From the NCBI GenBank assembly GCA_965178125.1, contig OZ237772.1:124001-188000 (forward strand): a stretch of DNA of 64,000 nt, written 5' to 3'. Shown piece by piece: positions 1 to 64,000 of the stretch. A program made the position numbers and the translations under genes. Within the stretch, counting starts at the first letter, position 1, and each line of letters begins with the position of its first letter. Source of the DNA: Bilabrum cf. latius (Eukaryota). The notes under the pieces are model-generated. The model saw only the letters and a program-made list of their open reading frames with translations. It did not search any database and was not told the origin of the DNA.

Positions 1-471
1 CTAAGCTGAGTTGTAACTTGCGGCAATACTTGCTGCGTCTTCTGAGTGAGCTCCTGATAGCAAAAAATCCACGAGAGAAGCGTTGATCCTGCTGCTCCAT
101 GGACCTGTGCAGTCAGAACAAGCGGCATGAGCCGGCGTGGCTTCGCGATCAGCTTCGGCCTACATAGAAGTAGCAATTGCAGCGCTTGCGTTGGCCGAAT
201 CATCCTTGGACTCCTGTTCCGCATGTCTGGGCCCCTGCTCGATACCCGGATCGTTAACCTCGACCTTGATACCAGACGCGCTGGCATCTTGAATCATGGC
301 GGATGCTTCTCCAGCCTACCAGCATTCTCGGATGATTCGAGTTAGTTCACTTGTGCTGCCTTCCATTCGCACTATCGTGTAGTCTTTGTGCCAGATACAA
401 CGGAAAACTTCGCCGTCGCCGCGCATCATGACTGCGGAACCAAACACACCCAAGTGACGTGACGTCGTCAT
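1..471 (-). CDS. Hypothetical protein, 5' part (runs off the window start); visible only with TAG=Gln
   Basis: Minus frame from ATG 471 (MTTSRHLGVFGSAVMMRGDGEVFRCIWHKDYT...) has no TAA/TGA down to base 1, only TAG codons. Head-to-head with the gene starting at 577. Confidence 0.5.
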
Positions 472-576
472 TGTTTTTCTTGCCCGAATACCTCTGCGTC
501 AGCATATGGCTCCACAGTCTGGTTCGACTGCTTTAGTGATACCAGGATACGGCTATTGACCATCAGTGCGACCTGC

Positions 577-3500
577 ATGGAGTCGAGAAGACGACGTCGT
601 GGTGCATCGTCATCACCACGCTTTCGAGCGGAGCAGCCGGCAGGAAGAGTCCAAGCGTTGCGTAGAAGTTCATTGACATATTGTCTGAGCGCATTAAAAT
701 TCCGCGAGCCCCGCTTGATCCACCCGCATATTGTCACTGTCCTGCTATGCTGGATGATCGCATGTGCAACTGCCGCAAAACCGGTGTGGCGACGAGCAAA
801 CACTGGTCTTCCCAGCAGCGGGAGTCAGTACTTTGCCGACGATGATACATCGGAAATTCAGCCACCTCCGGCAGGCATGGGATGGAGGTCTGGGCACGTC
901 CTTGCGGGTGCGGTGACGTGCGGCGGACTCGAGAGCGGGACCACGGCTGGCAGTCGCAGACTGTCGGACCCACGCACTGACCCAAGAATAACACAAGATC
1001 AAGCATCGAATACCGATACAAATCGTGCACTCCAGTCTCCATCGAATCCACACGGAGACAGCCCAACCCTGTGGCTGCTCGCGTTCGGCGGCCAGGTGGG
1101 CGATGGCCCCCACGCCCTGCGATCAGACCTGCAGGTGGCCCGGTACTCGATCGGAGCAAGCGGTGAGGCATCACAGACAGAAAATGCCGATCGCACGGGC
1201 GATGCATCGCGCGGTGGCGCATCGCAGCTGGACTGGCTTGTCCCCGAAATAGTGGGGGATCCCGCAGCGTCGAGGGGGCTTTGCTCCCCTGGGAGCCCGC
1301 GAACCTTCGCCGAAGGTTCGTGCGAGCCGGTCCCATCTGCAAGGGCGTTCGCGGGCGGGGGCAGCAGGGGCAGCGAGATGGTCGTGTTCGGCGGGCTGGG
1401 TGCTGGCGGTGACCTGGGTGACCTGTGGAGTGCCAGAGTGCTAGAGCGAGAGGTGCAGGTGCAGGACGATGTCACGATGGCAGCAGCGTCAGCAGCAGCC
1501 GGAGGCAGGAATGGGGATGGTGGAAGCACGAGGCCCCCAGAAGAGGAAGAACATGGTGGTGCTCGCCGGTCCTCCACCACACCGCAGGGTGGTCAACGTG
1601 AGGGCAGCGGCAGTGTGCAGGTGGCCTGGACGCGACTTTGGCCACCGCAAGGAGCACTCGTCACACCACTGATGGATGCGTGCCAGGACGGACCAGCTGA
1701 CGCGAACCGAGCGGTTTCAAGGGGTCTTCTGCTCTGCCCTAGGCCTCGGCGGGAGGCTGTCGTGGCCGTGTGGGAGGGCATGGTGTTCGTGGCCGGCGGG
1801 GGCTGGTCCCTGGGAGCAGCGATCGGGCCAGTGCCTGGGAGCACCAGCACGTCCGGTCTTTGGGGTGAGCTGGGGGCAGGGGGTGGCGCGTTTGTTCCCC
1901 AGCCCACTCAGGTGGAGGCTGGGCCAGGGCTGTGGGTATGGACGGACGGTTGGTCTGCCGGATCGGGTGCATCGCACGATGGTGCTAGCGGCCAGTGGCA
2001 CATCGTGCCCGAGTCTGTTCCCTATTCGGAATCATTATCACCAGACAAGGCCGCTTCCCAGTGGCTGCTGGGGCGCATGGCTGCCGCGGGTGGTGCGGCC
2101 ACAGCGGTGGAATGGGTGGTTCCGCAGGACGGAACAGGCGCCGCGCAGTCCCAGTGGCAGGAGCGCGTGCCGGTGTCTCTAGCATGGGGTGGCATGCCGC
2201 CTGCGGAACTTGCCGCGCGGTGCCGCGGCGCCGCGCAGAACGGTTCCGCCACGGGACAAGCAAACCCTCGCCTCGCGACCATTTTTATTGCCGGTGGCCG
2301 CACGCCCATCGGGCCGGATTCCGGCTCCGGACTGGGGCCTCGCCCGACCCAGTCTCGGTTTGCAATGCTGCGGCCGCTGGTGGTGGCTGTGGATCTCGCA
2401 TTGACTCCCGAGGGGATTTCCCCCAGCGTATCGGGGTCAAGCACAGGTGGCAGCCAACAGGGAGCATAGAGAAGAACAAGTCAGTCGGAGACACTCGACC
2501 ACGGAGCTGGCACAGGCGTAACGGGCGCAGGCGCGGGGCTGGGCAGCACTCGTCACCGGAGGTCGCTCCAACTGACGCCCAGCCCGAGCCCCTCTGCGTC
2601 TGTCACACCCGCCCCCTCCGTGACCCCGAGCCCCTCTGTGTCTGTCACACCCGCCCCCTCCGTGACCCCGAGTGCCTCACCGGGTCCGATCGAATGCCCC
2701 TTGCTGTGGGAGGGCCGAGACGCGACCGATGACGATGGGCCGCAGGGTGCCGCCACCCCCGGCGACGCCCTCTGGCCGCAGGGGCCCTCTGTTTCGCGCG
2801 GCGTCTGCGGGAGGTTCCGCACGCTTCGGTCCGTGCTGGGCGATGGGGAGGTTGCAACCAGCAGTGCATTGGGACCGGAGCGGGGCTTCGCGGGTGCCGC
2901 TGTAGTGCGCGGCGCCATTGGTCCCGCTGGTGCCGGTGCAGGGCATCGGTCGGCAATGAGCCTAGTGGTCTCGGGGGGTTACAACCGGTTCTCGGCCACG
3001 GGGCGCGGCGGCGCCGCCGGTATCGTTCTGCGTGACGTGCTGGCTGCGGAACTCCCGGCGCCGCGCAATCCAGGTCCCGCGGAACCCGCCCCGCAGTCGC
3101 AGCAGCTCAGCTGGAAGATCAACGATGAGCCCGGGCCGCAGCAGCAATAGGCACTGCAGGACAACACCGATGCACCTGCTCCTCGATTCGGAGCCGCAAT
3201 GATCCCAGCGGTGCCGGTGGAGCTGCTCGCAACAGGCGACATGTCGAATGCGGAACCGGCGCCGCGCGAACTGGCCCTGCTCGCTGGCGGTCGCCTGGGC
3301 CTGGTGCTGGACGACGGCTGGTGGCTCTTGGACTCCGAATCGCACTCAGAAGGCGCCGCGCAATCTAGTGCGGAACCTGGCGCGGCGTGGCGTGTCGCCG
3401 TGGCGGCGGATTTCCAGCACGAGCTGATGAGGCCTCGCTTCGTGTCGCCGGGGACCATCACTCTCCTCGCCGCGGCCGGTGTGACGATCGCGGTGTTCGG

Positions 3501-4506
3501 GGGGATCGAGGCGGCGCGGCGGTGCGGCACGCTCGGGGCGTGTCTCGGCTGCGACTGCTGCCTGGGTGAGGATGACGAGTACGAGGAGAACGGCGGTGCC
3601 GGGGGCCAGGGATGGTTCGGCACCGGCACCGGCGGTAGTAATGGGGGTGGACTCAGGATAGGAGAGCTAGGCATGCTGAAGGAGAAGAAATGGAGGGGAA
3701 GACGGAGGCGTCGGATCAGCAGCGGGCGGATCGCTGAGTAGTGCAAGGCCCCAGAATCCACCGATGTTGCCCCAGCGGCAACTACTAGAGCCACGCAAGG
3801 TTCCGAGACCTAGTGTGGTGAGTGCAGCCACAGCAATGGTACTGTGACGAGTGGTCGAGTTGGAGAACGGCAGTAGCAACAACAAGAGGAGGAGGAGGAG
3901 CAGTGCGCCGTGTGCCTGAGCGAGTTCGAGACGGGCGAGGACGTGACGGTGCTGCCCTGCAAGCACGCGTACCACACGCCGTGCATCCGGCAGTGGCTGG
4001 GCCAGCACACGACGTGTCCTCTGTGCAAGCGATCAGTGCGCGCCGCTTTGCGTCGTCAGGCCATGGCCCAGGCTCGGCGCGAGAGACTTTGCTGCGGTCT
4101 GTGGGGCGCGTGCTGCCCGGAGTAGGAGTAGGAGTAGGAGGACGAAGAGGAAGATGAAGGAGGGGTGAATGAAATCGAAATGGTCGAGGCTGCAGGGGCA
4201 GGTCGTCCAGAAGGTACAAGCGTAGACAATGATGGCGTCATAGGTGGATCTACCGGTGGAAATCGCGGGAATAGTAGGACTGGGGGCGGTGATGCCGGTG
4301 CTGTGGACGGGGTCGGTCTGCCTGGATAGCGCGGGGGCTATAGCTATAGTATCCGTCGGGAAGGCTCCAATGGTGTGGAAGACATGGCTGCACGCGAAAC
4401 GTCGGCATCTGCCGTGGGGTCATCGTCCAGAGCAGGTGGAGCAACCGTTGTACGGCGGGATACCGAGGGGCGAGAGGCATCAGAACCAAATGGTATCCTT
4501 GTTTGA
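577..4506 (+). CDS. Kelch-like beta-propeller, Ser/Pro/Thr linker, transmembrane and C-terminal RING-H2 protein (putative membrane E3 ubiquitin ligase), ~1309 aa
   Basis: ORFs 556-2469, 2620-3150, 3199-3741 and 3910-4125 are in one frame, separated only by TAG; first real stop is TGA 4504-4506. Kelch-type motifs (MVVFGGLGAGGDLGDLW, PRPRREAVVAVWEGMVFVAGG, PAPRFGAAM), hydrophobic ITLLAAAGVTIAVFGGI, and RING-H2 CAVCLSEFETGEDVTVLPCKHAYHTPCIRQWLGQHTTCPLC. Confidence 0.85.
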
Positions 4507-5259: not shown

Positions 5260-8200
5260 TTAAACACTGCCCTGTTCCTTGCCGGCCCGGGCCTTTTGCA
5301 TCGACGACACCCAGGAGTGGGTCTAGGCTGGCGACTTAGGGCTGACCCGTCTTTCAACTGGATCGGCGTCCTGCATCAGCTTGCGCTTCTCGTCTGCCTG
5401 CAGGTCCCAAGGATGCATTCGATTCAGGGTAATCTGCGCATCAGGGAACAAAAACCTGCGGAACTCATCCCCTTTCAGAATCCACACATCTGACACATCC
5501 ACACCCTCGAGTTTCTCTGTCTCATCCTGGGTTTTGCCGCCCACCTACCCAGCAGCTACCATTTTCTGAACTTTCCGTGCCACGGGTGCCAGGGACATCA
5601 GCATGCGATGGAACTGGATTTCGTCCTCTCCCACGCCAAGCGCACGAGCATATGCAGCTCTCGCCTGGTCAACATTTGCCTTGCTCAGGAACGACTTAAC
5701 CCTTGTCTTGTCCACGGAAGATTCGCCGCCTTTCACCTGAATTCGAATTACGTGGTACTGCACCTGTGATTGTGACTACGTGCCAGTGCCGTGTGTCGTG
5801 CCCCTCGCTTCCAAAATCACAGAGAGATCGACTCCTGCCTCGTCCGGTGCCTCCCGCATCACGCGTCCGATGAGCTCTTCTCGGCTACGCTCGAATGGCT
5901 TGTCAATGTAAAAGAGGGACTCGGTTTCTTGAAAACAGCCCCCACGGTCGTGCTCTACGATGGGGTCCGATATGCCCTCCCACACCTCCTTGGGCACCTT
6001 GGGCAGCAAACCCTTCGCCAGTATCTTTGACACCAGCCCGCGGTGCAGCGACTCGGCCACTACCATCTCGAAATCCTTGCCAAAGCGGCCGTCCTAGGTC
6101 TGCAGAGATCCGTGCTCGCGCTAGGTTAAGTACACACCTTTTATACTGGCGGTGTGCTGCTTGACCAAGAAAGCAAATGCGCCCCCGAGGAAGCTCGTGA
6201 AGGCTGGCGATATGGCCCCTTCCTGCGGGTTGTGCGGCCCCTCGTGCTTGGTGCGATACCCGACTAGCTGCTTATTACGCCAAAGAGACAACCGTTTCTC
6301 GAGCTCTAGCGCTTTCTTCTCTCTATCCTCGCCCTAGCTGATCTCTACGCCTGCCAGCCTCTCCATCTGTGTCAAAACTTCCGGCACGGGGAGCTGCGGA
6401 AGGCTAGCAAGTGGATTCCTCAGGGAATCCCGCAGCCACGTTGGGTTATCGGAGTCCATGAGGCTCAGCATTCCTAGCATCACATCTCGGAAACCATCTG
6501 TGTTCTCGTCCATGTGCCGGAACCAGTCCACCATCTTGACCTCCATAGACCCCCCGCCATTGATATCAGCTAGACTACGCGCCAGGCCCCCAGTCTGCCA
6601 CACCATGTGTCTCAGCTTGTCTCTGGCCCTGATTGCAGCACCCATGGCCCTTGGATCACTCAGCAATTCCTTGGCAAGCTGCTGGGTCAGCCTGCCAGCA
6701 TGTACCTTAGACTACGACTCGCCATCCAGGACAGCGCCCTCTGACAATGCAGCATGGTCTGTCCGCACCCAGAACGACCGCATAGCTTCGTTGACGGCCT
6801 CCAGGCTCGGAAACACCATCTGACCTGTACTGGCCCATGGACTCGAGGCTGGGGCATCTTGAATGGCTAGTGCAAGGGCCAGAACGACATCCTGCCCACA
6901 CACAGGCCCATTAACTGCAGCCGGATCGCTGCCGTCGTCTGGTAACCAATCTTTCTTCCAAGCCGCCGCATTTCGCTACCGGAGCAGCATGAGGCAGATC
7001 TCATCCTCTGCATAGGTGAAATCCATCCACCTCGACTTGAACTTGGAGCGCTGCAGCGCAAGCTTGAACTAGGTACTGTCTTTCGGCCGTTCGTAGACGA
7101 TGCTGCCCAGCTCACTTCCAGTTCCAGTAAGCACGACCATGACACCAAAATCAATGCTGACACCGCGATCCACCGCCCTCCAGAACTTCAGGGACCTCGG
7201 CGTATACTCGGCATTGCAAGCGGGACTCGCTTCCTGCACTACTTCACGCGCTAGCTAGGCCTCATCAATGGCAATCACACAGTCAATCTTTCGATCCTGC
7301 ATGAACTAAGCAATGCCCTCCATCCTTGCTGATGATGGTTTCGATGATTGGGCCCAATTCGGCACAACGCCCTTGCTGTCTCGCAGAAGACCCAACTAGT
7401 CCAGTGACACGGCGATGTACGCCCAAAGAGGTGCTATATCAAGTGGTGTGGGTTCATCTTGAACGACCTCCGGAATGTAAATCCCTACGTGGTGCATGGA
7501 ACCAGCGTGAGTGCTACAGTCTCGGAGCGCCCACCCAGCCAACTACTTGCCAAGTACCATGTTGCGCACCAACTGAGACTTGCCGAATCCCTTGTATCCC
7601 ATCAGTGTGCCACCCCGTAGACCGACGTTGTCTTTCTAGAAACAGAGTTCAAGCAAGTCCTTCAGCTGCTACCCGCGCGGAGACACACCATCTTCTACAT
7701 CCACGATTGGTAGGAATCTATCATCGAAGATGGCGGATGCAGGAGCGCACTTTACGATGACATGCACCATTGCATCCCCAAGTAGCCTCAAAGACTAACG
7801 CACTGCGCCTGCAAGCTTGGGAGGGACACTATTCGACTGAATGTGGCCCTTGATGGCCTCCTCGAGCGTGTCTGCCTGAAAGGGCTGTGGAATTTTGAAA
7901 CCGCTCTCTGCTGCTGCGGCGCTGATTGCTGTAACTAATTTGCCGGCATTTGGCATAAACTAGTTTCGATGGTTGGGGTCTCCCCTAATTTGGTCGAGGT
8001 AACTTGGCGCAGGCAGGCCCTCCCTCGTGAGCTTGTCTTCCTCTTCCTGGCGCATCTAGGCATCGTGCTCAAGCAGCTTGTCCACAGCTTCACGCAATTT
8101 CTCGAGATCTATCTCTGCCTGCTCACTCCGGAGGTACTCGATCGAGCTCTCATGCGCCAAATAGCCCAGCAAGCCCATGCCGTGCAAGTAGACGGCCTTG

Positions 8201-8733
8201 TCAACCTCCGCAGCAGTCAAACCATCGGCCTGCAACAAATCGGCGCTATCACCCGCATCCAGACGCAACAAAATAGCATGAATGGATTCCGCAGCTCCTG
8301 CGGGCTCCTTTTCAGCATTCAAGAAAGACAACGATATACCATACACTTGGCACTGTGCCATGTCGTCGGCGGCCTTCTCCACAACCTCTCGAGGGTGCAA
8401 ATGAAGCTATTTAAATATCGATTTGACCTCTAATCTAAAGGTGTAGATGGATTTATGTTTTTGCCAAGCCGTCCCCAATGCTGGCGTCCAATCCTTGAGG
8501 TCACTCATGGTGTTGCGGCCAGCTCCCGTCGACATGGTACGGTCGACTATTTTGTGGCTTGTTCTCACCAAATACATACCATCACTTCTAAATTGTCTTA
8601 CATCGCGAATATGCAGACTGCACCTTCCTACCGTTAGCGCTGGAAAGGTTGAACGGATAGAAAGCACACCCCTCGCAGCATCTCGGAAAGGCTTCCACGA
8701 AATGGCACTTAAAGCCCTCCAGCTTCGATGCAT
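5260..8733 (-). CDS. P-loop NTPase fused to C-terminal PD-(D/E)xK restriction-endonuclease-fold domain (Crinkler/RHS 'CR-NTPase+REase'-like), ~1157 aa, intronless
   Basis: One minus frame from ATG 8733 to TAA 5260-5262 with about 19 in-frame TAGs and no TAA/TGA. Walker A GYKGFGKS (~7580-7600), Walker B CVIAIDEA[TAG] (~7255-7285), VVLTGTG sensor strand, TGGLARSL helical motif, then nuclease motifs GKDFE...PDEAGVDL...IRIQVK. Confidence 0.85.
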
Positions 8734-9111
8734 AACTAGACTAAATGGTTAAAGGCTCCCACTTGCTAGTTCCCCACGACAAAAAAGTGCTCTGATCGAG
8801 CAGATTACGGCGCTAAAACGTACTCTGTGGTCCGGCGTACGGGGGCACTGCGTCCCCGGTAGCCGAGGGGAGAATAACGGGGGGGTGCAGGCCGCAGGGT
8901 TACTTCCGTACTTTTTTGCGCGGCGCCAATCAGCAGATGCATTCGGAGCCAAATCGCGTAAAATAGTGCACTGGCCGACTAGACTGGGTTCACAAGCGAC
9001 CTAGGCCACGGAAGAGTGGCCCGACGCAGCGAAACGGAACGTAGGGCGCGCGGTGAGCAGTCCACCTCACTTCTACTGAGGAACCAGGTGTACAGCAGCC
9101 GAGAGCTCGGG

Positions 9112-18500: not shown

Positions 18501-18742
18501 CGACCAAGTCACGGACTAGTGTAGCGCTGCAGCGTAACAGCACGATGGACGCGTGTATCGTGCGAATCATGAAGAGCAGGAAGACCATGAAAATCGCGGA
18601 TTTGATCGCTGAGACTGGCAGGCAGATCAGAACCTTTGACATGGACCCGCGAGCGTGCAAGATCCGGATCGAGTCGCTCGTCGAGAATGACTACGTGGAG
18701 CGAAGCGAGAAAGATAGAAAGGTGATCGAGTACATTGCGTGA
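15582..18742 (+). CDS. CUL: Divergent cullin family protein, ~967 aa; exons 15582-15982, 16078-16312, 16475-18742
   Basis: Cullin motifs LLASYTDMVLRG, LFRFISSRDLF, RLLGN[TAG]SASFDAEEALLAGLK, VLTGAFWP, STLQCIAVL, and C-terminal neddylation region DACIVRIMKSRK...IESLVENDYVERSEKDRKVIEYIA-TGA. Two phase-compatible GT-AG introns. N-terminal exon is less certain. Confidence 0.9.
17150..17332 (+). repeat. (GGTGCT)n microsatellite encoding a poly-Gly-Ala insertion in the cullin
   Basis: About 30 near-perfect hexamer units in frame. Confidence 0.95.
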
Positions 18743-45122: not shown

Positions 45123-45153
<31 letters not shown>

Positions 45154-51100: not shown

Positions 51101-52447
51101 TCTTTCTCCCGGCTTGCGCTCTCTTTGAGCTTGCGCTGCTCCTCAGCGAGCTTCAGCTACGAGTCTCGCTGCAGGTCCTGCACCTGACGCTGCAGCTGAG
51201 CGGTCTGCTCCTGCAGTGCCTGCTCGGCAGCCCGTCGCTTCACTTCCGCCTCAGCCTCCTTCTCGGATTTCGCCGCCGCCTCCTGCTCGGCCTTGGCTGC
51301 TCGATCCTTCTGCTGCTGCAGGAGGTCCTGCAGCCTGAGTCTTTCCTGCTCCGCCTTTGCCTCAGCCTCCCGGATCCGGGCTTGAAGTTCCTCCTGCTTC
51401 TGCGACTCCTTCAGCACTTTGGCCAGGAGGTCAGCCTCTGCCTTGGCTGCCTCTGCCTTGATGCGGGCCAACTCTGTCGCTGCCCCGCTGTCTCGTAGCT
51501 CGGGTGTGTCAGCGTGAGCGGGTTGGACGGTGTGACTCGCAACTGGTACTGCCTACAGAGGCTGCATATCACCGGTGTCGTCAGCTGGTGCAGTCTCATG
51601 GTCGGGAGGTGTGGACATTCCCGACTCTGGCTAGCTCCTCAAACGACTGGGTGGTGCAATGACCCCTGGCGATTTCTAGGCATCATCGCTAATTCCATCG
51701 GTGTCGCTTGCTGCCTCGTCCGTCCTTGGGAGCGCTTGCTGCAAATCGTTGTCGGAGTTGGCAATACCCTCACTACCCGGATTGCTGGTGCCTGGTGCAG
51801 AGCTTGACACGTTCTTGCCGGCGGATCCCTTGGAGTTGTTTTCATTGATCTGCTGAGCTGCCTCTGCATGCTGGCTCGACGCAGTTGGGGCCTTATCAGC
51901 GGGTGGGGCAATCGTCGAGATGGCCGTAGCAGCGGCAGCTGGCGTCAAATCTTTTCCAAGTGCATCACCATCGCCATGACTTGCATGGGCTGCATCCTCT
52001 ACAGCCTTCTCAGCGGCAAAGTCTGTTTTGCTCTCGTTTGCAGCTCTATCAATGTTTACTGCGCCGGCAGGATCATCGTTGGCACCAGCTTCTTCCGACC
52101 CTCTACCTGGTCTCGGCGTATTGCCCGCAGCCTCTCCACTGCCGGACTGCTTGGGCAAGTCATCTACAACAAGATCAGATGTTGAATCCACGTCCGTGCC
52201 AAGCGAGCGTCCGGCATCGGTTCCGTGCTCCTGCTGCATTACGCTGGTCGATGCCGAGGGATCATCTATTGGTGTTGGAGGTGCTTGCACGGACCGGCTT
52301 CCATCTGCGTCGATCGGCTTGCTGTGAGAATGCCCAGAGGAACTGGCCACTCTTGCCACGAGCGGTGGTCCCTCAGTACCATCTGGTTCAGGATCAAACT
52401 CAGGTGCAGGTGCAGGCGCAGGCGCGGGCGCAGGCGCAGGCGCAGGT

Positions 52448-52481
<34 letters not shown>

Positions 52482-54399: not shown

Positions 54400-55008
54400 T
54401 AAGATGATACTACCGTTTTGTATGTCTCTCCCGCGTACTTCCTGAAAATGTCAAGGACGACTGCGTAAAATGCAAAGTAGGAGGAGAGAAATCATCGAGT
54501 AGGCCGTCGCAGCGAGAACCGAGGATCATTGGAAAATCTAACTGCCAAAGTCAATGTTATGCATGTAATTGAACATGGGCACGAAATTGCCGTGCGGCAG
54601 TCATGCAAGGGTACCTGATTCGGCGGTGTGAGACTTGGGTGGTGCTTCTGTCGATGCTATCCTTGGTCGACTCACTTAGCTAAAAACACAACTAGTCGCC
54701 AGTGGGTGATTACGGATATATTTCGCAAAAGCAATAACTGTAGTGTGTTTCCCCTTAACAGATTCGTTGGTCGTGCTCGCCTCGTCCGAGTCATCCCAAT
54801 CTGTTTTCGGACATGGACTGTTGGGTGCTGTTTGGTCGTGCACCACCCAGCGGCGCAGCTCAACGGATTACAGCTGGTTCAGAATGGCTCGATAATTAGC
54901 GATACAAGAACACACGAAACATAAAGCGGTACAGTATTGCATTATTTCAGTGCATTCACACGACAGGCCGCAAAATAGACTGGCGGGGCACGCATGCCGC
55001 ACAGCCGC

Positions 55009-57803
55009 TCACCGCTCCCGGGCGGTCATATCCCCATCTTCCTCCCCACCATCCATCATGATCATGCCCGCGCCGGATCCCCCACCTGAGCCAATGCATG
55101 CGCCCGATCCCGTGCTACTACCAATACTATGGCAACTTCCACGCCGAGCCCAAGCCCCCATTGACCCCCATTCGCCCATCGCACCACTGGCACTGGCACC
55201 GGCACCGGCACCGGCACCGGCAGAATGTGCCCCCAGGCGGACCCCCAGCCCCACGCCGCCCATCATCCCATCCCCTGCCTCCATGTCTCCCGTGTCACCC
55301 TCCGGACCCACACTCACGCAGTCCTCCATTCCCCTCTCCTTGGCATCCACGGGCAGCTCATACCGGTCCATGCTGGTGAACTAGTCCATGCGACTGCCGC
55401 CCGCGAGGTGGCTCCAGCTGCCATACCCTTGGCCCCTAGCAGTAGTATGCTGCAGATCACGGTCTCGACCCTGGCTGCGATCTTCCCCGCGATCAGACCC
55501 AGTGTTCCCTCCCATTGTCACGCTGCATGCCGCATCCATCTCGTGCTCCAGCTGCACAGACGCGCCCATGAGGGACCGATGCTCGCACTCGTCACACGCA
55601 GCCACACTCAGCGACGGCACCCGCATCCCACCAGCGGCATCGACGCCATCGCCGTCAGGCCGAAACTCCCCCATCATCTCCCCGTCGTTCCTCCATGCGA
55701 TCGGGATCATCCGACTGCCCCGCCTGCCACCACCAGATGGTACCTGCTGGAGCATACCCCCACTGTGGCTGCGGCTGCCGCCATTGCTACTGCTAGCCCC
55801 CGTCCTGGCTCTCTTGGCTCGAGGTGGCAGGCCGGCGGTGCCAGTGGCAGTGGCAGTGCCCCCTCGGGCTGCTCCACGCACCATGTCCATCGCCTTCTCC
55901 TTCTCCTTCTGCTTCTCGTCGACCTCGACCCCGCGCATGCGACTGGCTCTGCGACTTGTTCCTCGGGATTGTGTTTCCTGAGCCTGGTCCCGGGTCACTC
56001 CAATGCGTTCCTGCTCCTCCTCCTCCTCCTCGTCCTGCTCCTTGTCACCCTAGACCCCCTGCCTCTGCAGCACCAGCGCCTCCTGCATCTCGTGCCTCTG
56101 TCGCTTCCTGGGGCGGATGAATCCGCCAGATGTTGTGGCTCCACTGCTTTCCTGATCCTGACCTGACCCTCTAGCAAATTCCTCCGTCTGCGCAGTACTA
56201 AGTCGAATGAACCTGCGAGGGTCGGACTGTTCCGATTTGCCTGCCGCTTTGTCAGCAGTTCCGCGATGCCGTGCTGGCGTTCCCGTCCGGATGCGGAACC
56301 GCATGAGGGGCGCCGCGCAAGGGCTCTGCCCGTGCTGCGGTGTATCAATCGGGTCGCGGGGCGATTCGTCTTTGCATGCCTCTTGGTGGTTCCGTTGCAT
56401 TGCGCGGCGCCGCGCCCTGCCGGCCAGAGCAGCCGACTACATGCGGGCCCGGGCCGATGAGTCCACGAGCTCGACCGGGTGTGACGAGTGATACCCGACC
56501 CCTTGTCCCACCAGCTGACCGGCCTCGCCCGGCACACCACCATCCTGGTTCTCACCGCCACTGCAGTCGTCGGTGCCCTCGCCCCATGCACCACTGGCAC
56601 CCCCATCCATCAAAGCACCCGCAAAAGAGCCCTGCGACTTTCTGCTGTGACTTGTGCTAAGTCTGGTGACCCTGCCAGTCCCCACCTGCCTTCCGATCGG
56701 AGCAACCGATGGATGCCTCACGATGCCCATCTACGCTCCCTCGGCATCTGTGGGAACAGAGGAGGGCCGTTGGGTGTGACGAGTGCAGTCCGACGGGCCC
56801 CAGCCGAGCAATCGCCAGGCAGACCCACCGAAGCCGCGGTCGTCCCGTCCACCGGTGGATTCACTGCCACCCATGCCCGCGCCCGCACTCGCAATCCGCG
56901 TGCCACACCCGCTGCTGGGGTCAGCGGCTTGGCTACTTCTGCCGCTGCAGAGAACACAGCCGCGCGATGCACCCCCGGTGCCGCCCGGTACCAGTCGGTC
57001 AGGCTCCGAGGCCCTGGATCTCGTCCTCCTCCTTGTTCCCTAAGTAGAGCGGCGGCTGGCCGCAAGCCTGCCCAGGAAGCTGTTGATGGCGGCGTACGTG
57101 TTCCCCGCGGCGGTTGCAACCGACTGGATGAGAGAGGGTGCTTTCTGTGACGATTGAGACTCGTGTGACGAGTGAGAGGCGCAGCCGTCATCCTCATCCC
57201 ACTCGTCACACTCCATGGCAGCCGATGCCGCACCGGTCCTGCGAGGACTGCACTATGCCCCAAGCCCACCCAAAGGTGCGTGTGACGAGTGAATCTGGGG
57301 AACAGCGAGGATACCGTCGTCGCTTGACTCGTCCTCATCCGCTGGACCCGTGGGGGAAGATCGGCTAGACCGCTCGAATCCATGGTCTGGCTGCCCCACC
57401 GTCCTGCCCAGAGCGATTCTGCTGGTGTCAACTGCGCCAGTGGCAGCACCTGCACTTGCACTAGCACTGGCACTGGCACTCCCACTTGTGCCACTGCCAC
57501 TGCCACTGCCACTGCCACTGGAGCTAGAGCTAGACGACATCTCCTTTCGATCCATACGGCTTGTCACGAGTGCTCGGTCCGCTGTGCTCAACAGACCCGG
57601 TGTGCGCCATTGCAAGGCATTAGCGCCATGCCTCGATGCACCCGAGCCAGCAGCCTGTGCCCAATTACCATTACCATTACCATTACTATAACCGCTGATC
57701 TAGCTGCTTGTGCGCCCAGCATTCTCGTGCCATTGCCACGACCCAGCATTGCCATTGGGCCTGTCATGCGGAGCGATCCCAGTTCCATTGCCTCTAGCAA
57801 AAA

Positions 57804-57843
<40 letters not shown>

Positions 57844-58896
57844 GCTGCTGCTGTGACGCCCTACCATGCCGCCGTTCAAATAGGAAGCTCCTGGCGCGAG
57901 CAATTGGGGCACTCGGGGCGCTGCCACGGGGGAGCGCGCAGACTGCGTACTCGCGGCAGACTGACCTAGCCCGGTGTGAAGCGGTTCGTGTTCAGCGGCT
58001 TGTGAAGCGGGCGGCTTGGCTGGCCCGTGGTGAGCCAACTGCCACAGGCCCACCACCCCCTCCGAATCGCTGAACGTGGGCGGCGCGTGCAGGCTACTGG
58101 TTGCGGAACCTGATCCGGATCCTGCGCGGCGCCTACCCCCAACGGAAGCGCTCTCGCGCTCGTCACGCTCAGCCAGATGATGGGCAGGGCTGTCCCTGTC
58201 ATGGCTGGCGATGCTTCCGAGCCTTGGCGATGGCAGCTCGACACCTGGCGACACGGAGGCTGAGGCTGCCCTGCTGTACCCGGAGCAATAGTGGCTCTCC
58301 TGCTTGCCGATAGACGGAACTGTTTCTGGCGCAGCGCTGCCCGAGGAGTCGGCTCTCTGCTTGGAGGAGGCAGAGGCAGTTGCTTCCGTGCTCGGTTCGC
58401 GGCTCGTGCCAGACGATGCATCCCAGGCCAGCGGATCGGCAAGGGGCCCGGGTGCACCAGAAAGGAAGCCCGGTCCTGCCGTTGGTAGCCGTGGAATTTT
58501 AGGCGGTATCACGTTTGCATTACCATTTGGTCGCCATCTGGCCTGATTTCCGGCTTTAAGCAATGCGCTAGAACCCAAATCGAACCGACCTGCAGACCGG
58601 GGTCCCAAAGCAGCCGTTGCTCCAGCGTACGGGCCATTATGTGAAGTAGTATGTAGCTCCTATGATATGCCATTTACAAAGCATGACATTAAGTCATCCG
58701 AGCTTCCCCGCAGGATTGCTACGCGTCGACGCTTGGGCAACCGGAATGGCTACTGGGGATGTGCATTCGCATCGGTATCGCCAACGGCTCCTGCTGGTCC
58801 AGTCGATACCTACGTATGTATTGCCCCAGCCACATCGCCGGCGCTATGCTGGTACACTTCTGATAGGCGCCTCTTTCGCTGCTTAGCTCGCCTCAT
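55009..58896 (-). CDS. Low-complexity, probably disordered Gly/Ser-rich protein with basic NLS-like N-terminus, ~1295 aa
   Basis: Single frame from ATG 58896 (MRRAKQRKRRLS...LPKRRRV) to TGA 55009, interrupted only by TAG; poly-Ser, GS and NG repeats. Confidence 0.65.
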
Positions 58897-59148
58897 GATT
58901 ACAGACAGGCTGCGATTTACGGCAACCACCTTGCTTTCGGCACAATACAACCAAGTATGCGTGTATTGAAGCTAGTATCACAAGCTTTGATATCTGCAAA
59001 ACTTGCTGTGTATGAACACCGCGAATCGAACAATTACGATTCGTTAATTGCGAACGTCGATCAAATCATATCGTTACAGTACGTCTATATCAGATTTATG
59101 AAATTGGACGGCGAGTCAAACCAAGATTAGTTGTGTACTATTGCTAAT

Positions 59149-62100
59149 TCAGCTCAAGTGTATTTGAACCGAGACACCACCGCCTCCTTGTCCAAGTGGG
59201 TTTTGCGTCCCGATGGTCGGCCCAGAGCTTGCTGCAGCACCCTGCATCTGCGCCGCAGCCTGCATTTGCGCAGCAAGCATGCTCTTCTGCAAAAGCCCTG
59301 CAGGTGCTCTCATTGAAGATTTACGCATCGCCCTATGACCACCGAAGATCTGGGAATTTGCCTCGCGCTGTAGCTCCATTCGTGCCTGCTCGACTTCAAG
59401 CAGCCAGCGAGCCTCCTCCTGGCGATCTAGGCGCAGGTTCATCATCGCCCTCTCCGTCATCCGCACGCCCGTCTCCTCCATGATAAGCCGTGCGAGGTAC
59501 GCCTTCTTGGTAGTTCGTGGGGATTTCGCGTGCCGCACGAGGTAGTCCCTGCTGGAGTCCTTCATGCTATCGATCTCGCGGAGCAGCTGCTTGAGCGCCT
59601 GCTCCTCGGAGCGCTCCAGGTCCTCGCGGCGCTCCAGCTCCTCAAGAGCATGTTTGAAGTGCACGAAATGACCGGGGTGCCGCCGCGCATTCCGAGCCAC
59701 GCGATGCAGCGTGTCGAGCGATGGCTGCTGCACGTACTGCTGGTCGAACTTCGAGACCGCCTGCCCTCCGGGGATCCCGCCGGCCATGCGCGAGGTGCCG
59801 AAGCGAGCGGGAGGGTTGGAGGGACTGGAGCCCGGCACCGCCGCTGGAATCGCAGCCCCGGCAGCCCCAGCAGCCCCGGCGGCCCCAGCAGCCCCGGCGG
59901 CCCCAGCAGCCCCGGCGGCTCCAGCACCAGTATCAGCTGCCAACCCGCCAGCGATGGCAGCCCGCTTAGCTCGGGAGCTTGCTTCATCCCCCGAGTCATC
60001 GCTGTCAGAGTCAGCATCCCCGGAGCTCTTCCCGGCCGAGGCAGCTGCCGCCACGGCAGGTGCGACATACGCAGCGGTGCGTGCCTGGAGCAACGGGTCA
60101 GCGTCGTGGCTGCCTTTTTTTGCGGCTCGAACGGGCCCACAGCAGCCTGTACAGCACGCGAAGAGGCCGCAGCAGCAGGAGCTCAGGTCGAAGCAGCACC
60201 ATGAGAAAGGGGGAGAGCGGTAGCAGCAGGATGGGCATCCGCCCCTCATGTCAGGGGAGCGGTAATGCAGCGGGATGCCGTACCGCCCCATCTTGCCCTT
60301 GTTCCTCGGGTACATGAGCGACTCGTCCATGTCCAGCGCAAAGCACACCATCGCAGCGTCGATCGCCACCTCCCACACAGTGAAGAAGGCGCTTGCCACG
60401 CCGTATGCGAACGCCATCGTGACCATGACTGGGACCCAAGTGCCCGTCAGCTCCCGCTTGCCCCCGGGCTGGAACTCCGCCAGGTTGTCAAGGAACAGGT
60501 AGGCAAAGTACCCGCACAGCAATGTCACGCTGACCTTGCCCAGGAACATGATCACGTCGGCCACCGCGTTCACGATGGCCAGGAGGGCAGTGTACCGGAA
60601 CAGGAGGAGGAAGGCGTTGCGGGCCGATCTGCAGTACCCCTGTCCCTTCACTGCCGTGAAGAACATGGCGTTGGTGGACACGAACCGGACCATCTGCTCC
60701 AGCAGCCACAACGCGAAGCCAATGCAGCACCTGATGTAGTGGGCCGCCGCGTTTCTCTGCTCCAGCTGCTCCAGCCTGGTAGACATGTACTGGAAGACGA
60801 ACCGGACCAGCTGCACGAAGGCAATCAGGAAACTGCCGAAGGAGGCTGTGCCCAGATGGTACCGCACCGCCCTCCAGAGGCTCGCCACGATCTCGTAGTT
60901 GCCCCATGGGCCGTGTTTGTGGTACAAGGTGAAGTCCGGTATCTCCTCGGCGTCAGGGTCGTTCGCAGAACCAGCCGTGCCATCCGGTTTGATGTAGTGG
61001 GGCACCTCGCCCAGCGTGCTCTCGTCCTTGAGCGCCTTGGTCGAATCGTGAGCTGCCTTGTCATTGGCGTGCTCGGCATGGTGCATGCCCAGGAAGGCGA
61101 GCATGCCTCCATGGCCTCCCTCAGCGCCGCCGCCCGTCTTGCCCTCCTCGTGCTCGTGCTCCGTGGCGGGATTCGTCTCCAGAGCCGCCCCCGTGGTGCG
61201 CCAGTTCTCCCTGATCTTCCACCGTTTGAGCCTCTCTCCGTACACGGGGGAGGACTCCCTGCCGTCCAAGGAGAAGTAGTACGCGCCCACGGCGCCTCCG
61301 ATGGTCATCACTCCGATGCAAAGGATGAACTGGTTGGTCCACAGCAGGCCAAAGAAGTGGTACAGCAGCAGGTACTTGAGCGTGTCCACAGTCTCATACC
61401 GCGCGATCGTCCCGTTGTTGTTTGACAGGTCGTTGAGGATGGCAGTGGCGTTTGTGCCCGGGAAGTACTTCTGCACGTAGCTTCTGTCAACCGCCCCTGC
61501 CACGTCCTCGAGGGTCACTGACCCGGCGCTGGCCAGGGCAGCCGCGGCGTAGGCCCACCAGGCCAAAAAGGCGAGCATGAGAGCGGCACCGGCGAATGGC
61601 ATGAAGATGAGGAGCGGCATCTGGAACATGGACATCGCCGCGAGCTTGATGATCGCGATGGCGTTCTTGATCTGCTGCCGCACGGCGATGATGATCCCGA
61701 TGAGCAGGATGGTCACAGCGGTCATCGTGTACGCAGCCACCTTGTATGCAGTCCGGTAGCGAGTCGGGTCGTCAAGGCTCTGAGACACTCCGTCGTACTG
61801 CGAAAAGTCAGTGTCCAGCAGGTCCTCCGCCCGCGACTGCACTGCTTGAGCGTTCAGAATGCCCGCGCGGGCGTAGCAGAATATGGCGAAGAAGACGCTG
61901 ACCACAACGGTCAGCACCACGATGGTCCACACCACGATCCCGACAAACATCTGGGTGAGCTTGACGAAGGCGAACCCGAACAGGCACCCGAACACAACCG
62001 CGCACAGAAATATCACCCATGCGGACCGCTGCAAGTCACCAAAGTACCGAGACCACGTGGACTTTGCGCTCTGGAGCTGGTCCAGAACCAGCGAGGGCTG

Positions 62101-63223
62101 CGGCGGCTTGAACACGTCGGCGGCAATCACGTCTTGCATGAGCACGCACCTCGGGTCCTTGTGGTCGGTGATGCCGGGCGGAAGGACGCAGGCCTGCCTC
62201 CCGTTGTCTGTGACGTTGAAATCGGGGACGCACCGGTTCAGCACCGGCACGGAGTTGGTCGGTTGCAACCAGCAGTTCCTGCTCGCCCGCTGGCAGATGC
62301 TCTCCTGCTCGGCTTGCAGGCCGCGGGCCTCCAAGTCCGACCGGTGCTCGCGCTCAACCAGCATCCGAGCGTGTGACGAGTGTTCCATGCTGTGCTCTCC
62401 GAAGGGCAGGTCGAATTCATCGAAGATTTCCTCCTCGAACGCCTCCACTTGGTCCTCTCCGGCGCCCAGGGCAATCAGCCTCCTGGCCTGCTCGCTTGAC
62501 GACACGATCGCGCTTCGAACGCAGGCGTCTGCGAACGGCTTCTCCTCGGCTGAAATTTCATAGTTGCATATGACATCCAGAGCGCTGGGGCACTTTGCCT
62601 GACACACGCCGTAGAACCTCATCTGGTCGAAATCGCCCTGCAGCGCCAGCCTCACGTTGTAGACGTAGTCCTCGTTCATGCGCGGGTACGTGATCACTTG
62701 CTCGTCTTTGAAACCGTCCGTAACGCCGCACGTGTTGCCTTCATAGTCGGTGCCGTAAAACAGCCTCCTTGGGTTGCCAAGGGCAAACCCAGTGGACGCC
62801 ACGCCCACCATTCCGACCCAGAAGATTATGAACGCAATGCAGCAGCACATGTCTGTCATCTTTCGCTTTTCGGAAGGGATAAATCCAAGGGGCTGCGATA
62901 TCCGTGGGGGCAATGCCAGAGGCGTATGAGTCGGTCTCGTTTGCGGGGTGCGCGGGGTAGACGGGCCCATACATGCTGTGGCTGTATGCTAAATGCAGCA
63001 GATTGAACGCATGAGAAAGCTACCAATAGAAACAATGTGTACATCTTACCTCGTCGCCTTCATCACTACAAGTGCTGCATAGCTTTGCACAGCAACCGCA
63101 CTGCGCTGGCACGTCACGATCAACGTACTGTGGTCTCCCATCGGAAGCTCCTTTCTGCTTCGAAAGCTCGCTCTTTGGAGCTTCGGAAGGATTGGGTGCG
63201 TTTGTTGCGTCTTTGTCTGCCAT
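59149..63223 (-). CDS. SLC44A: Choline transporter-like (CTL/SLC44) membrane protein, ~1305 aa; exons 63223-63050 and 62892-59149
   Basis: RKMTDMCCCIAF, GNPRRLFYGTDYEGNTCG, GVCQAKCP, FGLLWTNQF, RYHLGTASFGSFLIAFVQLVR, VRFVSTNA, AVKGQGYCRSARNAF, FLGKVSV, IDAAMVCFALD. First exon spliced via GTAAGA...ATCGCAG (62893-63049). Confidence 0.93.
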
Positions 63224-64000
63224 GCTGTCGGATGATCGACCGGGCAGGAAATAAAGCACACAACTCTGCTCTCGTGCTCCGGTCTAGCTGCCTCTGGTTT
63301 TCGTGGCTCCGGTTGTATACAAACATCTCGTTACAAAGTCACAATACAGACAGACTTGTGAGCCCTACCGTTCCGTCAGGGGGCTCATTACCGGAATAAA
63401 AATCGCCGATTGGGCCTATTTTCAGGGGCCGTGTTCCAACCATTGAAAATCATTAAAGAGAATAATAACTCATTTAATATAATATTTACTTCATTAATAG
63501 TATTGTGTGCAAATTTCAAGTCTGAAACGTACTTATTGACGAAGATACAGCGGGTGCAGTTCAAGCTGTCGGCCACCGAGCACGGGATTCACGAAATTCG
63601 CCCCGGCAGGTCGCATAGGAGGATATATTTCAGGTAGCGTTTATGCTTTCATTCCTCGATGAATCGGCATGATCTTCTCTCTCACACTAAATGTATTTAT
63701 AATTATACTAATGGCGGTCTGAAATTGCACGAATTGCAGTTATTGATGCCTGGGTTTGGTGAAGAGCGTGGGCGGGCCGCTGTGAGCAATTTTCGAGGCA
63801 CCTGCATCCTATTTCCTGTGCACCCATTGGCCTCATCAGGCGGCTACAGTATGTTATCCGTACAAAAGAGCATTGTAGGTCCACACGTGCTTGCTGCTCG
63901 CAACGACGAGCCTGGTGCCTCCCGGTTTCTGCCAGAGGGCTGCATGGGCTGGTTGTAGTTTTTTCTGCCTGCAATGCGTGTTCGGCATACCTGCTGGTTA

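What the first reader, a model, noticed from the sequence alone, without database searches (positions are those of the whole stretch)
1..64000. Non-canonical nuclear genetic code: UAG reassigned to glutamine while UAA and UGA stay stops
Seen: in at least 10 genes, standard-code ORF fragments lie in one frame separated only by TAG, and every reconstructed complete gene ends in TAA (5260, 11374, 34125, 34483) or TGA (4506, 14898, 18742, 20181, 24506, 42847, 55009, 59149). Identity as Gln is supported by: TAG inside a Gln run (CAG TAG CAA CAA CAA, 3871-3885); Walker B IDEA-TAG (7255-7257), matching the common DEAQ; the WxWxxQ position of the Mib/HERC2 motif (41313-41315); and TAG aligning with CAG between paralogous segments in this window (27842-27844 vs 26624-26626 in RQQLVR; 25100-25102 vs 33934-33936 in FQxASEGRP). 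Established: UAA and UAG are usually reassigned together; UAG-only reassignment is rare (e.g. the fornicate Iotanema and some ciliates). Inference: this GC-rich genome may represent an independent origin. The host lineage is unknown to me.
Basis: partly seen in the sequence, partly recalled or inferred. Interest (0 to 1): 0.95.

Follow-up and report, generated by a model that had tools for sequence, protein, structure and literature searches.

The report
Eukaryote that reads TAG as glutamine
This stretch of nuclear DNA from an unidentified GC-rich microbial eukaryote uses the stop codon TAG as an ordinary codon, most likely for glutamine, while TAA and TGA still end genes; this is a rare kind of genetic-code change, already known from a few unrelated protists.

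Summary
Reading TAG through turns scattered fragments into 12 long ORFs of 495-3867 codons covering 73% of the window. They hold 124 in-frame TAG, 0 TAA and 0 TGA. TAG is as frequent in frame as out of frame. Ten ORFs end in TGA and two in TAA.

Contigs of three public runs that splice out four GT..AG introns carry 32 of 38 checked in-frame TAGs unchanged. The TAGs are therefore not edited or spliced out.

Residue identity was tested in one gene family: two window paralogues, three fragments from a run-derived (Logan) contig, and two metagenome contigs from a relative that also need TAG read-through. Of 23 TAG sites with a non-TAG partner, 10 face Gln and 4 face Glu. True Gln sites face Gln 47% of the time. 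Every other amino acid tested gives P ≤ 8e-7.

No tRNA(CUA), eRF1 or organism identity could be tested, because no genome is held.

UAG-only = Gln is already known in Iotanema, Protocruzia and phyllopharyngean ciliates. GC content, TGA-dominated stops, gene layout and introns argue against those lineages. This is probably a further, possibly independent, case shared by at least two related organisms.

The parts
463..4506 (+). ORF of 1347 codons, RING-H2 protein; 9 in-frame TAG; ends TGA
   Evidence: (zf-RING_2 E=1e-14). TAG at 3874 lies inside the run CAG TAG CAA CAA CAA.
5260..8748 (-). ORF of 1162 codons with no Pfam family; 19 in-frame TAG; ends TAA
   Evidence: Contig pieces of the spliced runs X5-X7 cover 5147-8818 with 0 other letters.
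9887..11374 (+). ORF of 495 codons ending in 7.7 copies of a 66-bp (22-residue) tandem repeat; 2 TAG; ends TAA. An intron at 9052-9161 lies upstream.
   Evidence: joint 9051/9162
12625..14898 (+). TM9SF/EMP70 gene, last exon; 5 TAG; ends TGA. The intron 12569-12732 is spliced in X5.
   Evidence: EMP70 E=4e-45
16442..18742 (+). Cullin gene, last exon; 3 TAG. The TGA falls exactly at the canonical cullin C-terminus. Introns at 15982-16076 and 16313-16474.
   Evidence: Cullin E=4e-52, Cullin_Nedd8 E=2e-18; alignment runs to the last residue of query and chain
20181..23411 (-). ORF of 1076 codons, membrane protein with no family; 7 TAG; ends TGA
24506..28465 (-). g1: ORF of 1319 codons with an internal duplication; 10 TAG; ends TGA. 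TAG 27842-27844 faces CAG 26624-26626. TAG 27614-27616 and TAG 26393-26395 share one family column.
28552..29346 (-). Small gene directly upstream of g1, homologous to L001:1265-2038. Both diverge at a GGTGAG 5' splice-site-like motif, and the gene order is the same as in L001.
33682..34125 (+). ORF of 147 codons related to the g1 C-terminal part; ends TAA. CAG 33934-33936 faces TAG 25100-25102.
34464..38258 (-). ORF of 1264 codons, coiled coil plus divergent protein kinase; 21 TAG. The 3' end is uncertain: TGA at 34464 in this frame, TAA at 34483 in another frame.
   Evidence: Pkinase E=1.4e-8
38544..41339 (-). g2: ORF of 931 codons starting with a MIB_HERC2-like piece; 9 TAG (residues 9, 106, 149, 224, 396, 444, 504, 818, 911); ends TGA
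   Evidence: Residues 149, 396 and 504 face Gln in the 70-76% identical fragments P0055 and P0054. The fragment ORFs break at residue 224.
42847..54450 (-). ORF of 3867 codons, low-complexity and coiled-coil protein; 27 TAG; ends TGA
55009..58977 (-). ORF of 1322 codons, low-complexity protein; 11 TAG; ends TGA
59149..63045 (-). Choline-transporter-like gene. Its single TAG lies upstream of the likely start Met. GC3 is 0.78. Ends TGA.
   Evidence: Choline_transpo E=1e-72

Best explanation
The window is nuclear DNA of an unidentified, GC-rich (58%), intron-poor microbial eukaryote. In its genetic code UAG is a sense codon read as glutamine, while UAA and UGA remain the terminators. This is the pattern of NCBI table 15.

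Shown here: TAG sits in frame in nearly every gene at the frequency of a neutral triplet. It is kept in spliced transcripts. It faces Gln in paralogues and in relatives. TAA and TGA are excluded from frames.

Inferred from the known UAG-only cases (passages of PMC5304391), not shown: a tRNA-Gln with anticodon CUA, probably derived from tRNA-Gln(CUG), decodes UAG but not UAA, and eRF1 has lost or weakened UAG recognition.

TAG makes up about 16% of Gln-type codons. It is rarer in genes with high GC3. At least one related organism, seen in a metagenome, shares the code.
For: (1) TAG read-through. It creates 12 ORFs of 495-3867 codons covering 46.8 of 64 kb. TAA read-through does not.

(2) In-frame counts. 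TAG 124, TAA 0 and TGA 0 in 15,604 codons. In-frame TAG is 7.95 per 1000 against 8.52 off frame. If TAA were used relative to TAG as CAA is to CAG, 49 TAA would be expected.

(3) Eukaryotic nuclear genes. Cullin, EMP70/TM9SF, a choline-transporter-like protein, RING and a kinase are present. The cullin ends with TGA at the canonical C-terminus.

(4) Transcripts. Contigs of runs X5, X6 and X7 join across four GT..AG intervals (9051/9162, 12568/12733, 15981/16077, 16312/16475). No such joint is listed for X1. Only 3 letter differences are listed over 20 kb, and none is at a TAG. Of the 38 in-frame TAGs of genes 1-5, 32 lie in listed pieces of these runs with 0 other letters.

(5) Residue, per site. 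There are 25 TAG sites in one gene family (g1, g2, L001, L002; partner sequences also include g3, P0054, P0055 and P0079), each paired with its closest homologue. Two face TAG. Of the other 23, Gln takes 10, Glu 4, Leu 2 and seven other residues 1 each. True Gln sites face Gln 47% of the time. P(≥10 Gln of 23) is 0.71 under Gln and ≤8e-7 under Glu, Lys, Arg, Leu, Ser, His, Asp, Thr, Asn or Ala. Log-likelihood is -51.0 for Gln and -69.3 for the next best, Glu.

(6) Residue, per column. One family column is Gln in 4 members and TAG in g2. Another is TAG in 4 members and CAG in L002. The ORFs of the 70-76% identical fragments P0055 and P0054 break there. In 29 wider homologues the column of g1's TAG at residue 208 is most often Gln, 11 of 27 non-gap.

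(7) Same code in a relative. The metagenome contigs L001 and L002 need TAG read-through. Their ORFs grow from 344 to 1217 codons and from 388 to 1094. They hold 9 and 6 in-frame TAG, 0 TAA and 0 TGA, and both end in TGA. L001 keeps the window's gene order around g1.
Against: The residue test rests on one fast-evolving gene family, and its pairs are not all independent.

Glu is over-represented among TAG partners. In L001 against L002 it takes 4 of 13, whereas true Gln sites face Glu 9% of the time.

In the well-conserved proteins the TAGs fall at variable columns. The cullin TAG faces Lys 23, Arg 21 and Thr 7 of 53, with no Gln at all. The TBC-domain TAG in L001 faces Asn, Asn, Asn and Arg in the four chains shown, the first two being two constructs of one protein. 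Both results are compatible with Gln but do not point to it.

A neighbour-composition classifier ranked Gln first, but only by a hair, and it fails on real Gln codons.

No tRNA(CUA) and no eRF1 were seen. No gene end was shown to avoid TAG, other than by how the ORFs were delimited. The runs X5-X7 are not on record as RNA; their RNA origin is inferred from spliced contigs.
Confidence: 0.85

Rival explanations
1. UAG has a context-dependent dual meaning. It is Gln inside genes but still a terminator at some gene ends, as stop codons are in Condylostoma, the karyorelicts or Blastocrithidia.
For: Nothing in the window excludes it. ORFs were delimited by TAA and TGA, so a gene that truly ends in TAG would simply be read on. 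Only the cullin and the TBC gene of L001 have a homology-defined end, and both end in TGA. TAG is used less in high-GC3 genes (Spearman -0.75, P=0.005, 12 ORFs). That would fit residual competition with the release factor.
Against: In-frame TAG density equals the off-frame density (7.95 against 8.52 per 1000). There is therefore no visible selection against TAG in frames. TAGs are spread along whole ORFs, including near their starts. The two homology-defined ends use TGA.
Confidence: 0.08
2. UAG is a sense codon for another residue (Glu is next best, then Lys), or is decoded as a mixture of Gln and Glu.
For: Glu is the second commonest partner of TAG: 4 of 23 sites and 12 of 47 pairs. The conserved cullin column holds Lys, Arg or Thr. 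UAG = Glu, Leu and Ser are known elsewhere (passages of PMC11687900).
Against: P(≥10 Gln partners of 23) is 3e-8 under Glu, 8e-7 under Lys, 1e-12 under Leu and 2e-12 under Ser. Log-likelihoods are -69.3 (Glu), -72.7 (Lys), -101.5 (Leu) and -79.8 (Ser) against -51.0 for Gln. Ser faces TAG at 1 of 23 sites. Of the 2 Leu, one (g1 residue 691) is a one-column alignment offset beside a TAG.
Confidence: 0.05
3. This is not a code change. The TAGs would be removed or bypassed (RNA editing, unrecognised introns), or the genes would be pseudogenes or assembly errors.
For: The runs used as transcript evidence are not on record as RNA. Contigs can drop rare variants.
Against: Contigs that splice out four introns carry 32 of 38 checked TAGs with 0 other letters. 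There are 124 TAG but 0 TAA and 0 TGA in 15,604 codons, whereas decaying pseudogenes would gather all three. Four runs of another sample and three further studies hold the same letters. Two metagenome contigs show the same pattern.
Confidence: 0.01
4. The DNA belongs to a GC-rich giant virus, or to another non-nuclear element, that has its own TAG=Gln code.
For: Earlier notes of this scan describe giant viruses that read TAG as Gln (unchecked). I recall that some giant viruses are GC-rich and have spliceosomal introns.
Against: The gene content is cellular housekeeping: cullin with a neddylation domain, TM9SF, a choline-transporter-like protein. ORFs average about 1300 codons and carry coding microsatellites. 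A scan of viral contigs with the family alignment found no relative.
Confidence: 0.01

Closest known systems
Iotanema spirale (Fornicata): UAG = Gln, UAA and UGA = stop (PMC5304391; passages read)
   Same: Only UAG is reassigned, and to Gln. UAA and UGA end genes. Gln at UAG positions is only moderately conserved: 23% of conserved columns there, and 43% of closest-partner sites here.
   Different: Iotanema ends 104 of 119 genes with UAA and 15 with UGA. Here 10 of 12 ORFs end with TGA, and P(≥10 of 12) at Iotanema's UGA share is 5e-8. The window is 58% GC. No Iotanema sequence was compared directly. That paper's supplementary tables were not seen.
Ciliates with UAG-only = Gln (NCBI table 15): Protocruzia tuzeti and two phyllopharyngean lineages (PMC11687900; passages read)
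   Same: The same code table.
   Different: The window holds at least 13 genes on one 64-kb piece. From recall, phyllopharyngean macronuclei have gene-sized chromosomes, and ciliate genomes are mostly AT-rich with very short introns. Here the introns are 95-164 bp and start with GTGAG. The best full-length cullin hit in 5.8 billion proteins is only 29% identical, so no close sequenced relative with the standard code turned up.
UAR = Gln codes (NCBI table 6): many ciliates, Hexamita, Streblomastix, ulvophycean algae, Amoeboaphelidium (named in passages of PMC11687900)
   Same: UAG is read as Gln, presumably by a tRNA-Gln with a changed anticodon.
   Different: TAA is not a sense codon here: 0 in-frame TAA where about 49 would be expected.
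Other UAG-only reassignments: rhizarian exLh (Leu) and Scotinosphaera (Ser)
   Same: UAG is uncoupled from UAA.
   Different: Leu and Ser fit the partners of TAG far worse than Gln does.
TAG = Gln phages and giant-virus genome bins with alternative codes (PMC9523058 abstract; PMC13524828 passages; earlier scan notes)
   Same: The same codon has the same new meaning.
   Different: Those are viruses. This is a cellular nuclear genome with spliceosomal introns. No sequence link to viral contigs was found.

Membership tests
Nuclear code with UAG = Gln and UAA/UGA = stop (NCBI table 15 type) | In-frame TAG in many genes, including conserved ones, at a frequency not depleted relative to other frames | tested here: met
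   124 TAG in 15,604 codons, 7.95 per 1000 against 8.52 off frame. TAGs occur inside the cullin, TM9SF, kinase and RING genes.
Nuclear code with UAG = Gln and UAA/UGA = stop (NCBI table 15 type) | TAG is retained in mature transcripts (not edited, not spliced out) | tested here: met
   Contigs of three runs that join across four GT..AG introns cover 32 of 38 checked TAGs with 0 other letters. The runs are contigs, not raw reads, and are not on record as RNA.
Nuclear code with UAG = Gln and UAA/UGA = stop (NCBI table 15 type) | TAG positions align with Gln in homologues as often as true Gln codons do | tested here: met
   10 of 23 sites (43%) against 47% for true Gln sites. All other residues tested give P ≤ 8e-7. 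The test covers one gene family only. Cullin and TBC sites are uninformative.
Nuclear code with UAG = Gln and UAA/UGA = stop (NCBI table 15 type) | TAA and TGA are absent from reading frames and used as terminators | tested here: met
   0 TAA and 0 TGA in frame, where 57.5 and 301.5 are expected from off-frame density. Ten ORFs end in TGA and two in TAA. The cullin's TGA is at the canonical C-terminus. The in-frame count is partly circular, because ORFs were delimited by these codons.
Nuclear code with UAG = Gln and UAA/UGA = stop (NCBI table 15 type) | TAG is never used as a terminator | tested here: inconclusive
   Only two homology-defined gene ends were available, the cullin and the L001 TBC gene. 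Both are TGA.
Nuclear code with UAG = Gln and UAA/UGA = stop (NCBI table 15 type) | A tRNA-Gln with anticodon CUA | not testable with these tools
   No genome is held. There is no tRNA in the window, L001 or L002 and no Rfam match.
Nuclear code with UAG = Gln and UAA/UGA = stop (NCBI table 15 type) | eRF1 domain-1 changes that weaken UAG recognition | not testable with these tools
   eRF1 is not in the window, and no other DNA of the organism could be reached.
UAR = Gln code (NCBI table 6) | TAA is also used as an in-frame Gln codon | tested here: not met
   0 in-frame TAA where about 49 are expected if TAA:TAG followed CAA:CAG (P = 5e-22). Reading TAA through as well lengthens only a few ORFs, by 6-110 codons.

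The most novel reading that the evidence does not exclude
This may be an undescribed eukaryotic lineage, with at least two related organisms (the window's and that of metagenome contigs L001/L002), that reassigned UAG to Gln on its own in a GC-rich genome where UGA is the main terminator.

That would be a UAG-only change arising without the AT pressure usually invoked to make a stop codon vanish first. It would favour a route driven by a suppressor tRNA or an ambiguous intermediate.

Such a lineage would also be a candidate for the unknown hosts of giant viruses that read TAG as Gln. I put that last link alone at about 5%.
Probability: 0.4. Interest if true: 0.8.

Novelty: new member of a known kind. 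Interest (0 to 1): 0.65.

Why it matters
Nuclear code changes that separate UAG from UAA are few. Passages of PMC11687900 and PMC5304391 list Iotanema, Protocruzia, phyllopharyngean ciliates, a rhizarian and Scotinosphaera. Each new, independent case tests ideas on how a stop codon is captured.

A GC-rich genome that ends genes mostly with TGA, yet has freed TAG, is informative for the debate between codon capture and an ambiguous intermediate.

There is a practical point too. Any standard-code annotation of this organism, or of its relatives in metagenomes, will cut most genes into pieces. The public protein fragments P0054, P0055, P0056 and P0103 are such pieces, broken at the shared TAG column. 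The contigs may then be misfiled.

Giant-virus catalogues now report genome bins with single stop-codon reassignments and no known host (PMC13524828 passages). Cellular lineages with matching codes are what is needed to test host-virus code matching.

Tried and rejected
- Whole genome: none is held. tRNA(CUA), eRF1, rRNA and genome-wide codon inference were therefore out of reach.
- The search for homologous proteins: the TM9SF ORF and the kinase ORF in 'shorter' mode both returned nothing. Low-complexity words probably swamped the candidate lists. This used 2 of the 3 searches.
- Solved structures (PDB): no match for TM9SF. In the kinase the only TAG inside a shown alignment lies in a low-complexity match, not in the kinase-domain stretch. 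The transporter's TAG lies outside the protein.
- Neighbour-composition classifier: Gln ranked first for TAG but was tied with His, Leu and Arg. In controls 25 of 57 codons ranked first, while CAG ranked 7th and CAA 11th. It has no power for Gln and was dropped as evidence.
- tRNA and Rfam scans of the window, L001 and L002: nothing.
- Scans of genome contigs and viral contigs with the family alignment A1: no relatives.
- Protein Atlas on the transporter: it returned only the family and gave no usable taxonomy.
- Pfam on 10 ORFs of the gene-poor stretch 28.5-34.1 kb: nothing.
- Earlier findings of this scan: by place and by sequence there was nothing. One word query gave nothing. Another gave giant-virus leads only.
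- The look-up of sequencing runs: no RNA holder listed.
- Literature: searches for a GC-rich non-ciliate eukaryote with UAG = Gln listed only the known cases. The library holds open-access papers only, and supplements were not seen.
- Considered and rejected: Amoebophrya sp. ex Karlodinium, which is AT-rich with all three stops in frame (passages of PMC12005148); Iotanema and rhizarian exLh, which both end genes mainly with UAA (P = 5e-8 and 8e-6).

Full report
What is in the window.
- The 64 kb are 58% GC.
- Under the standard code only 4 ORFs reach 500 codons. If TAG alone is read through, 13 do. The 12 analysed here run from 495 to 3867 codons and cover 46.8 kb, or 73%.
- Twenty mononucleotide shuffles never gave a TAG-read ORF above 505 codons.
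- Pfam identifies ordinary eukaryotic nuclear genes: a cullin with its neddylation domain, a TM9SF/EMP70 protein, a choline-transporter-like protein, a RING-H2 protein, a divergent protein kinase and a MIB_HERC2-like piece. The remaining ORFs are long, partly low-complexity proteins without a family.
- No tRNA and no Rfam family lies in the window. No whole genome is held for it.

Is TAG really in frame, and only TAG?
- The 12 ORFs hold 15,604 codons with 124 TAG, 0 TAA and 0 TGA.
- The two other frames of the same DNA carry TAG at 8.52, TAA at 3.68 and TGA at 19.32 per 1000 triplets. Without selection one would therefore expect about 133, 57.5 and 301.5 in frame. In-frame TAG stands at 7.95 per 1000, which is no depletion.
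- The zero counts are partly circular, because the ORFs were delimited by TAA and TGA. But also reading TAA through lengthens only a few ORFs, by 6-110 codons, and fuses none.
- If TAA were a Gln codon used relative to TAG as CAA is to CAG (ratio 0.40), about 49 would be expected.
- Ten ORFs end in TGA and two in TAA. The cullin's TGA sits exactly at the family's C-terminus: the alignment to human cullins runs to the last residue of both.
The TAA at 34483 is out of frame with the long kinase ORF, whose 3' end is unresolved. The only TAG of the transporter ORF lies upstream of its likely start.

Are the TAGs kept in RNA?
- A search of public runs found eight holders from four studies, none on record as RNA.
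- Four runs were laid on 1-20000. Contigs of X5, X6 and X7 join across four intervals that start GT and end AG (9051/9162, 12568/12733, 15981/16077, 16312/16475). No such joint is listed for X1, the likely DNA source. I therefore take those contigs to derive from spliced transcripts. The introns are 95-164 bp and begin GTGAG.
- Only three letter differences are listed over the 20 kb (5177, 11672, 11687), and none is at a TAG.
- Of the 38 in-frame TAGs of the first five genes, 32 lie inside listed pieces of these three runs with 0 other letters.
- These are contigs, which can drop rare variants, so low-level editing is not excluded. Wholesale editing or splicing-out of TAG is.

Which residue?
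- Conserved proteins gave little. The one cullin TAG in a well-aligned column faces Lys 23, Arg 21 and Thr 7 of 53 homologues. A TBC-domain TAG in the related contig L001 faces Asn, Asn, Asn and Arg in the four solved chains shown, the first two being two constructs of one protein.
- A classifier based on neighbouring residues had no power for Gln and was dropped.
- The useful evidence came from one gene family. The window holds g1 (24506-28465, internally duplicated), g2 (38544-41339) and a short relative at 33682-34125.
- An exhaustive profile-free search with g2 found two fragments, P0054 and P0055, that are 70-76% identical. They come from one 4932-bp Logan contig. Their ORFs stop and restart around g2's TAG at residue 224. 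At g2's other TAGs they show Gln at residues 149, 396 and 504, Cys at 106 and Ala at 444.
- Two further fragments, P0056 and P0103, from a 5612-bp metagenome contig, break at the same column. Fetching that contig (L001) and a second one (L002) showed that both need TAG read-through. Their ORFs grow from 344 to 1217 and from 388 to 1094 codons. They hold 9 and 6 in-frame TAG, no TAA or TGA, and both end in TGA.
- L001 also keeps the window's gene order: a small gene directly upstream of the g1 homologue, with both copies diverging at a GGTGAG splice-site-like motif. It therefore comes from a related organism with the same code.
- Each of the 25 TAG sites of g1, g2, L001 and L002 was paired with its closest homologue, requiring at least 3 of 8 flanking identities. 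Two face TAG. Of the other 23, Gln takes 10, Glu 4, Leu 2, and Arg, Ser, Cys, Asp, Gly, Thr and Ala 1 each.
- In the same alignments true Gln codons face Gln 47% of the time. The chance of 10 or more Gln of 23 is 0.71 under Gln and at most 8e-7 under Glu, Lys, Arg, Leu, Ser, His, Asp, Thr, Asn or Ala. Log-likelihoods are -51.0 (Gln), -69.3 (Glu) and -72.7 (Lys).
- Counting all 47 pairs gives Gln 18 and Glu 12, with the same ranking.
- Column by column: one column is Gln in four members and TAG in g2. One is TAG in four members and CAG in L002. In 29 more distant homologues the column of g1's TAG at residue 208 is most often Gln, 11 of 27 non-gap.
- Against a clean picture, Glu is commoner opposite TAG than opposite true Gln: 4 of 13 against 9% in L001 versus L002. 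All of this rests on one fast-evolving family. I put Gln at about 0.9 given that TAG is sense.

Mechanism.
- Shown: TAG behaves as a neutral sense triplet, TAA and TGA as terminators, in at least two related organisms.
- Inferred from the known cases (passages of PMC5304391): a tRNA-Gln(CUA), one mutation away from tRNA-Gln(CUG), reads UAG but cannot read UAA, and eRF1 has lost efficient UAG recognition. Neither could be looked at here.
- TAG makes up 15.6% of Gln-type codons. Its share falls with GC3 across the 12 ORFs (Spearman -0.75, P = 0.005). The high-GC3 transporter gene has none inside its coding part. This fits a minor codon served by a scarce tRNA, or residual competition with eRF1. 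A dual meaning at some gene ends is not excluded.

Comparison with what is known.
- From passages of PMC11687900 and PMC5304391: UAG-only = Gln is reported for Iotanema spirale, Protocruzia tuzeti and two phyllopharyngean ciliate lineages. UAG = Leu is reported for a rhizarian and UAG = Ser for Scotinosphaera. UAR = Gln is reported for many ciliates, Hexamita, Streblomastix, ulvophytes and Amoeboaphelidium.
- The window fails the UAR test, having no in-frame TAA, and fits the UAG-only Gln type.
- It does not look like the known bearers. Iotanema ends 104 of 119 genes in UAA, while here 10 of 12 ORFs end in TGA (P = 5e-8).
- The window packs at least 13 genes on 64 kb, with 95-164-bp GTGAG introns and 58% GC. 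From recall, that is unlike ciliate macronuclear DNA.
- The best full-length cullin relative among 5.8 billion proteins is 29% identical, so no close standard-code relative surfaced.
- Amoebophrya sp. ex Karlodinium is AT-rich and has all three stops in frame (passages of PMC12005148).
- Seven literature searches listed no further case. Subscription journals and supplements were not visible. The organism itself stays unplaced.

Verdict.
- The kind of code is already known, so this is a new member of a known kind. It is probably an independent origin in a GC-rich lineage, shared by at least two organisms, but that needs the organism placed.
- Interest is moderate to high rather than the 0.95 first given.

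Noticed in passing
window 24506-28465 and 38544-41339; L001:1870-5520; L002:1-3282: A lineage-specific gene family: an N-terminal MIB_HERC2-like piece, then a roughly 230-residue conserved domain with the motif GAC-KYFVG. It is duplicated in tandem inside g1. One column (F-x-VP-I/L-E/D-E) is TAG in four members and CAG in one. Distant homologues are 800-3700-residue proteins. Function unknown.
   Followed up: partly
window, 12 long ORFs: The share of TAG among Gln-type codons ranges from 2% to 30% per ORF and falls with GC3 (Spearman -0.75, P = 0.005). The choline-transporter-like gene (GC3 0.78) has none in its coding part. This may reflect codon bias against a weakly decoded codon.
   Followed up: partly
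L001 vs L002; window g1/g2: Glu is more frequent opposite TAG (4 of 13 in L001 against L002) than opposite true Gln codons (9%). It could be sampling noise, or a hint of the mutational routes into TAG (GAG to TAG). Unexplained.
   Followed up: no
window 10864-11369: 7.7 near-identical (99%) copies of a 66-bp unit encode a 22-residue repeat at the end of the ORF 9887-11374.
   Followed up: no
window 17149-17330 and 34935-35035: Hexanucleotide microsatellites (30 and 17 copies) lie inside the cullin and kinase ORFs and encode long Ala-Gly runs. Contigs of all runs break at the cullin one.
   Followed up: no
window 11733-12159, also about 4670-5336 and 12674-13340: A 74-bp tandem array of 5.8 copies. 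Three stretches have 10-20 times higher summed contig depth in X1 and many loose ends. They are probably dispersed repeats or mobile elements.
   Followed up: no
window 28552-29346 (-) and L001:1265-2038: A small conserved gene upstream of g1 in both organisms starts MSGITDI. In both, similarity stops at a GGTGAG motif, suggesting a conserved intron position.
   Followed up: partly
L001:2-958: The related metagenome contig carries a GYP1/TBC1D22-type Rab-GAP gene (E = 7.5e-55 to yeast Gyp1p) with one in-frame TAG and a TGA end. No counterpart was found next to g1 in the window.
   Followed up: partly
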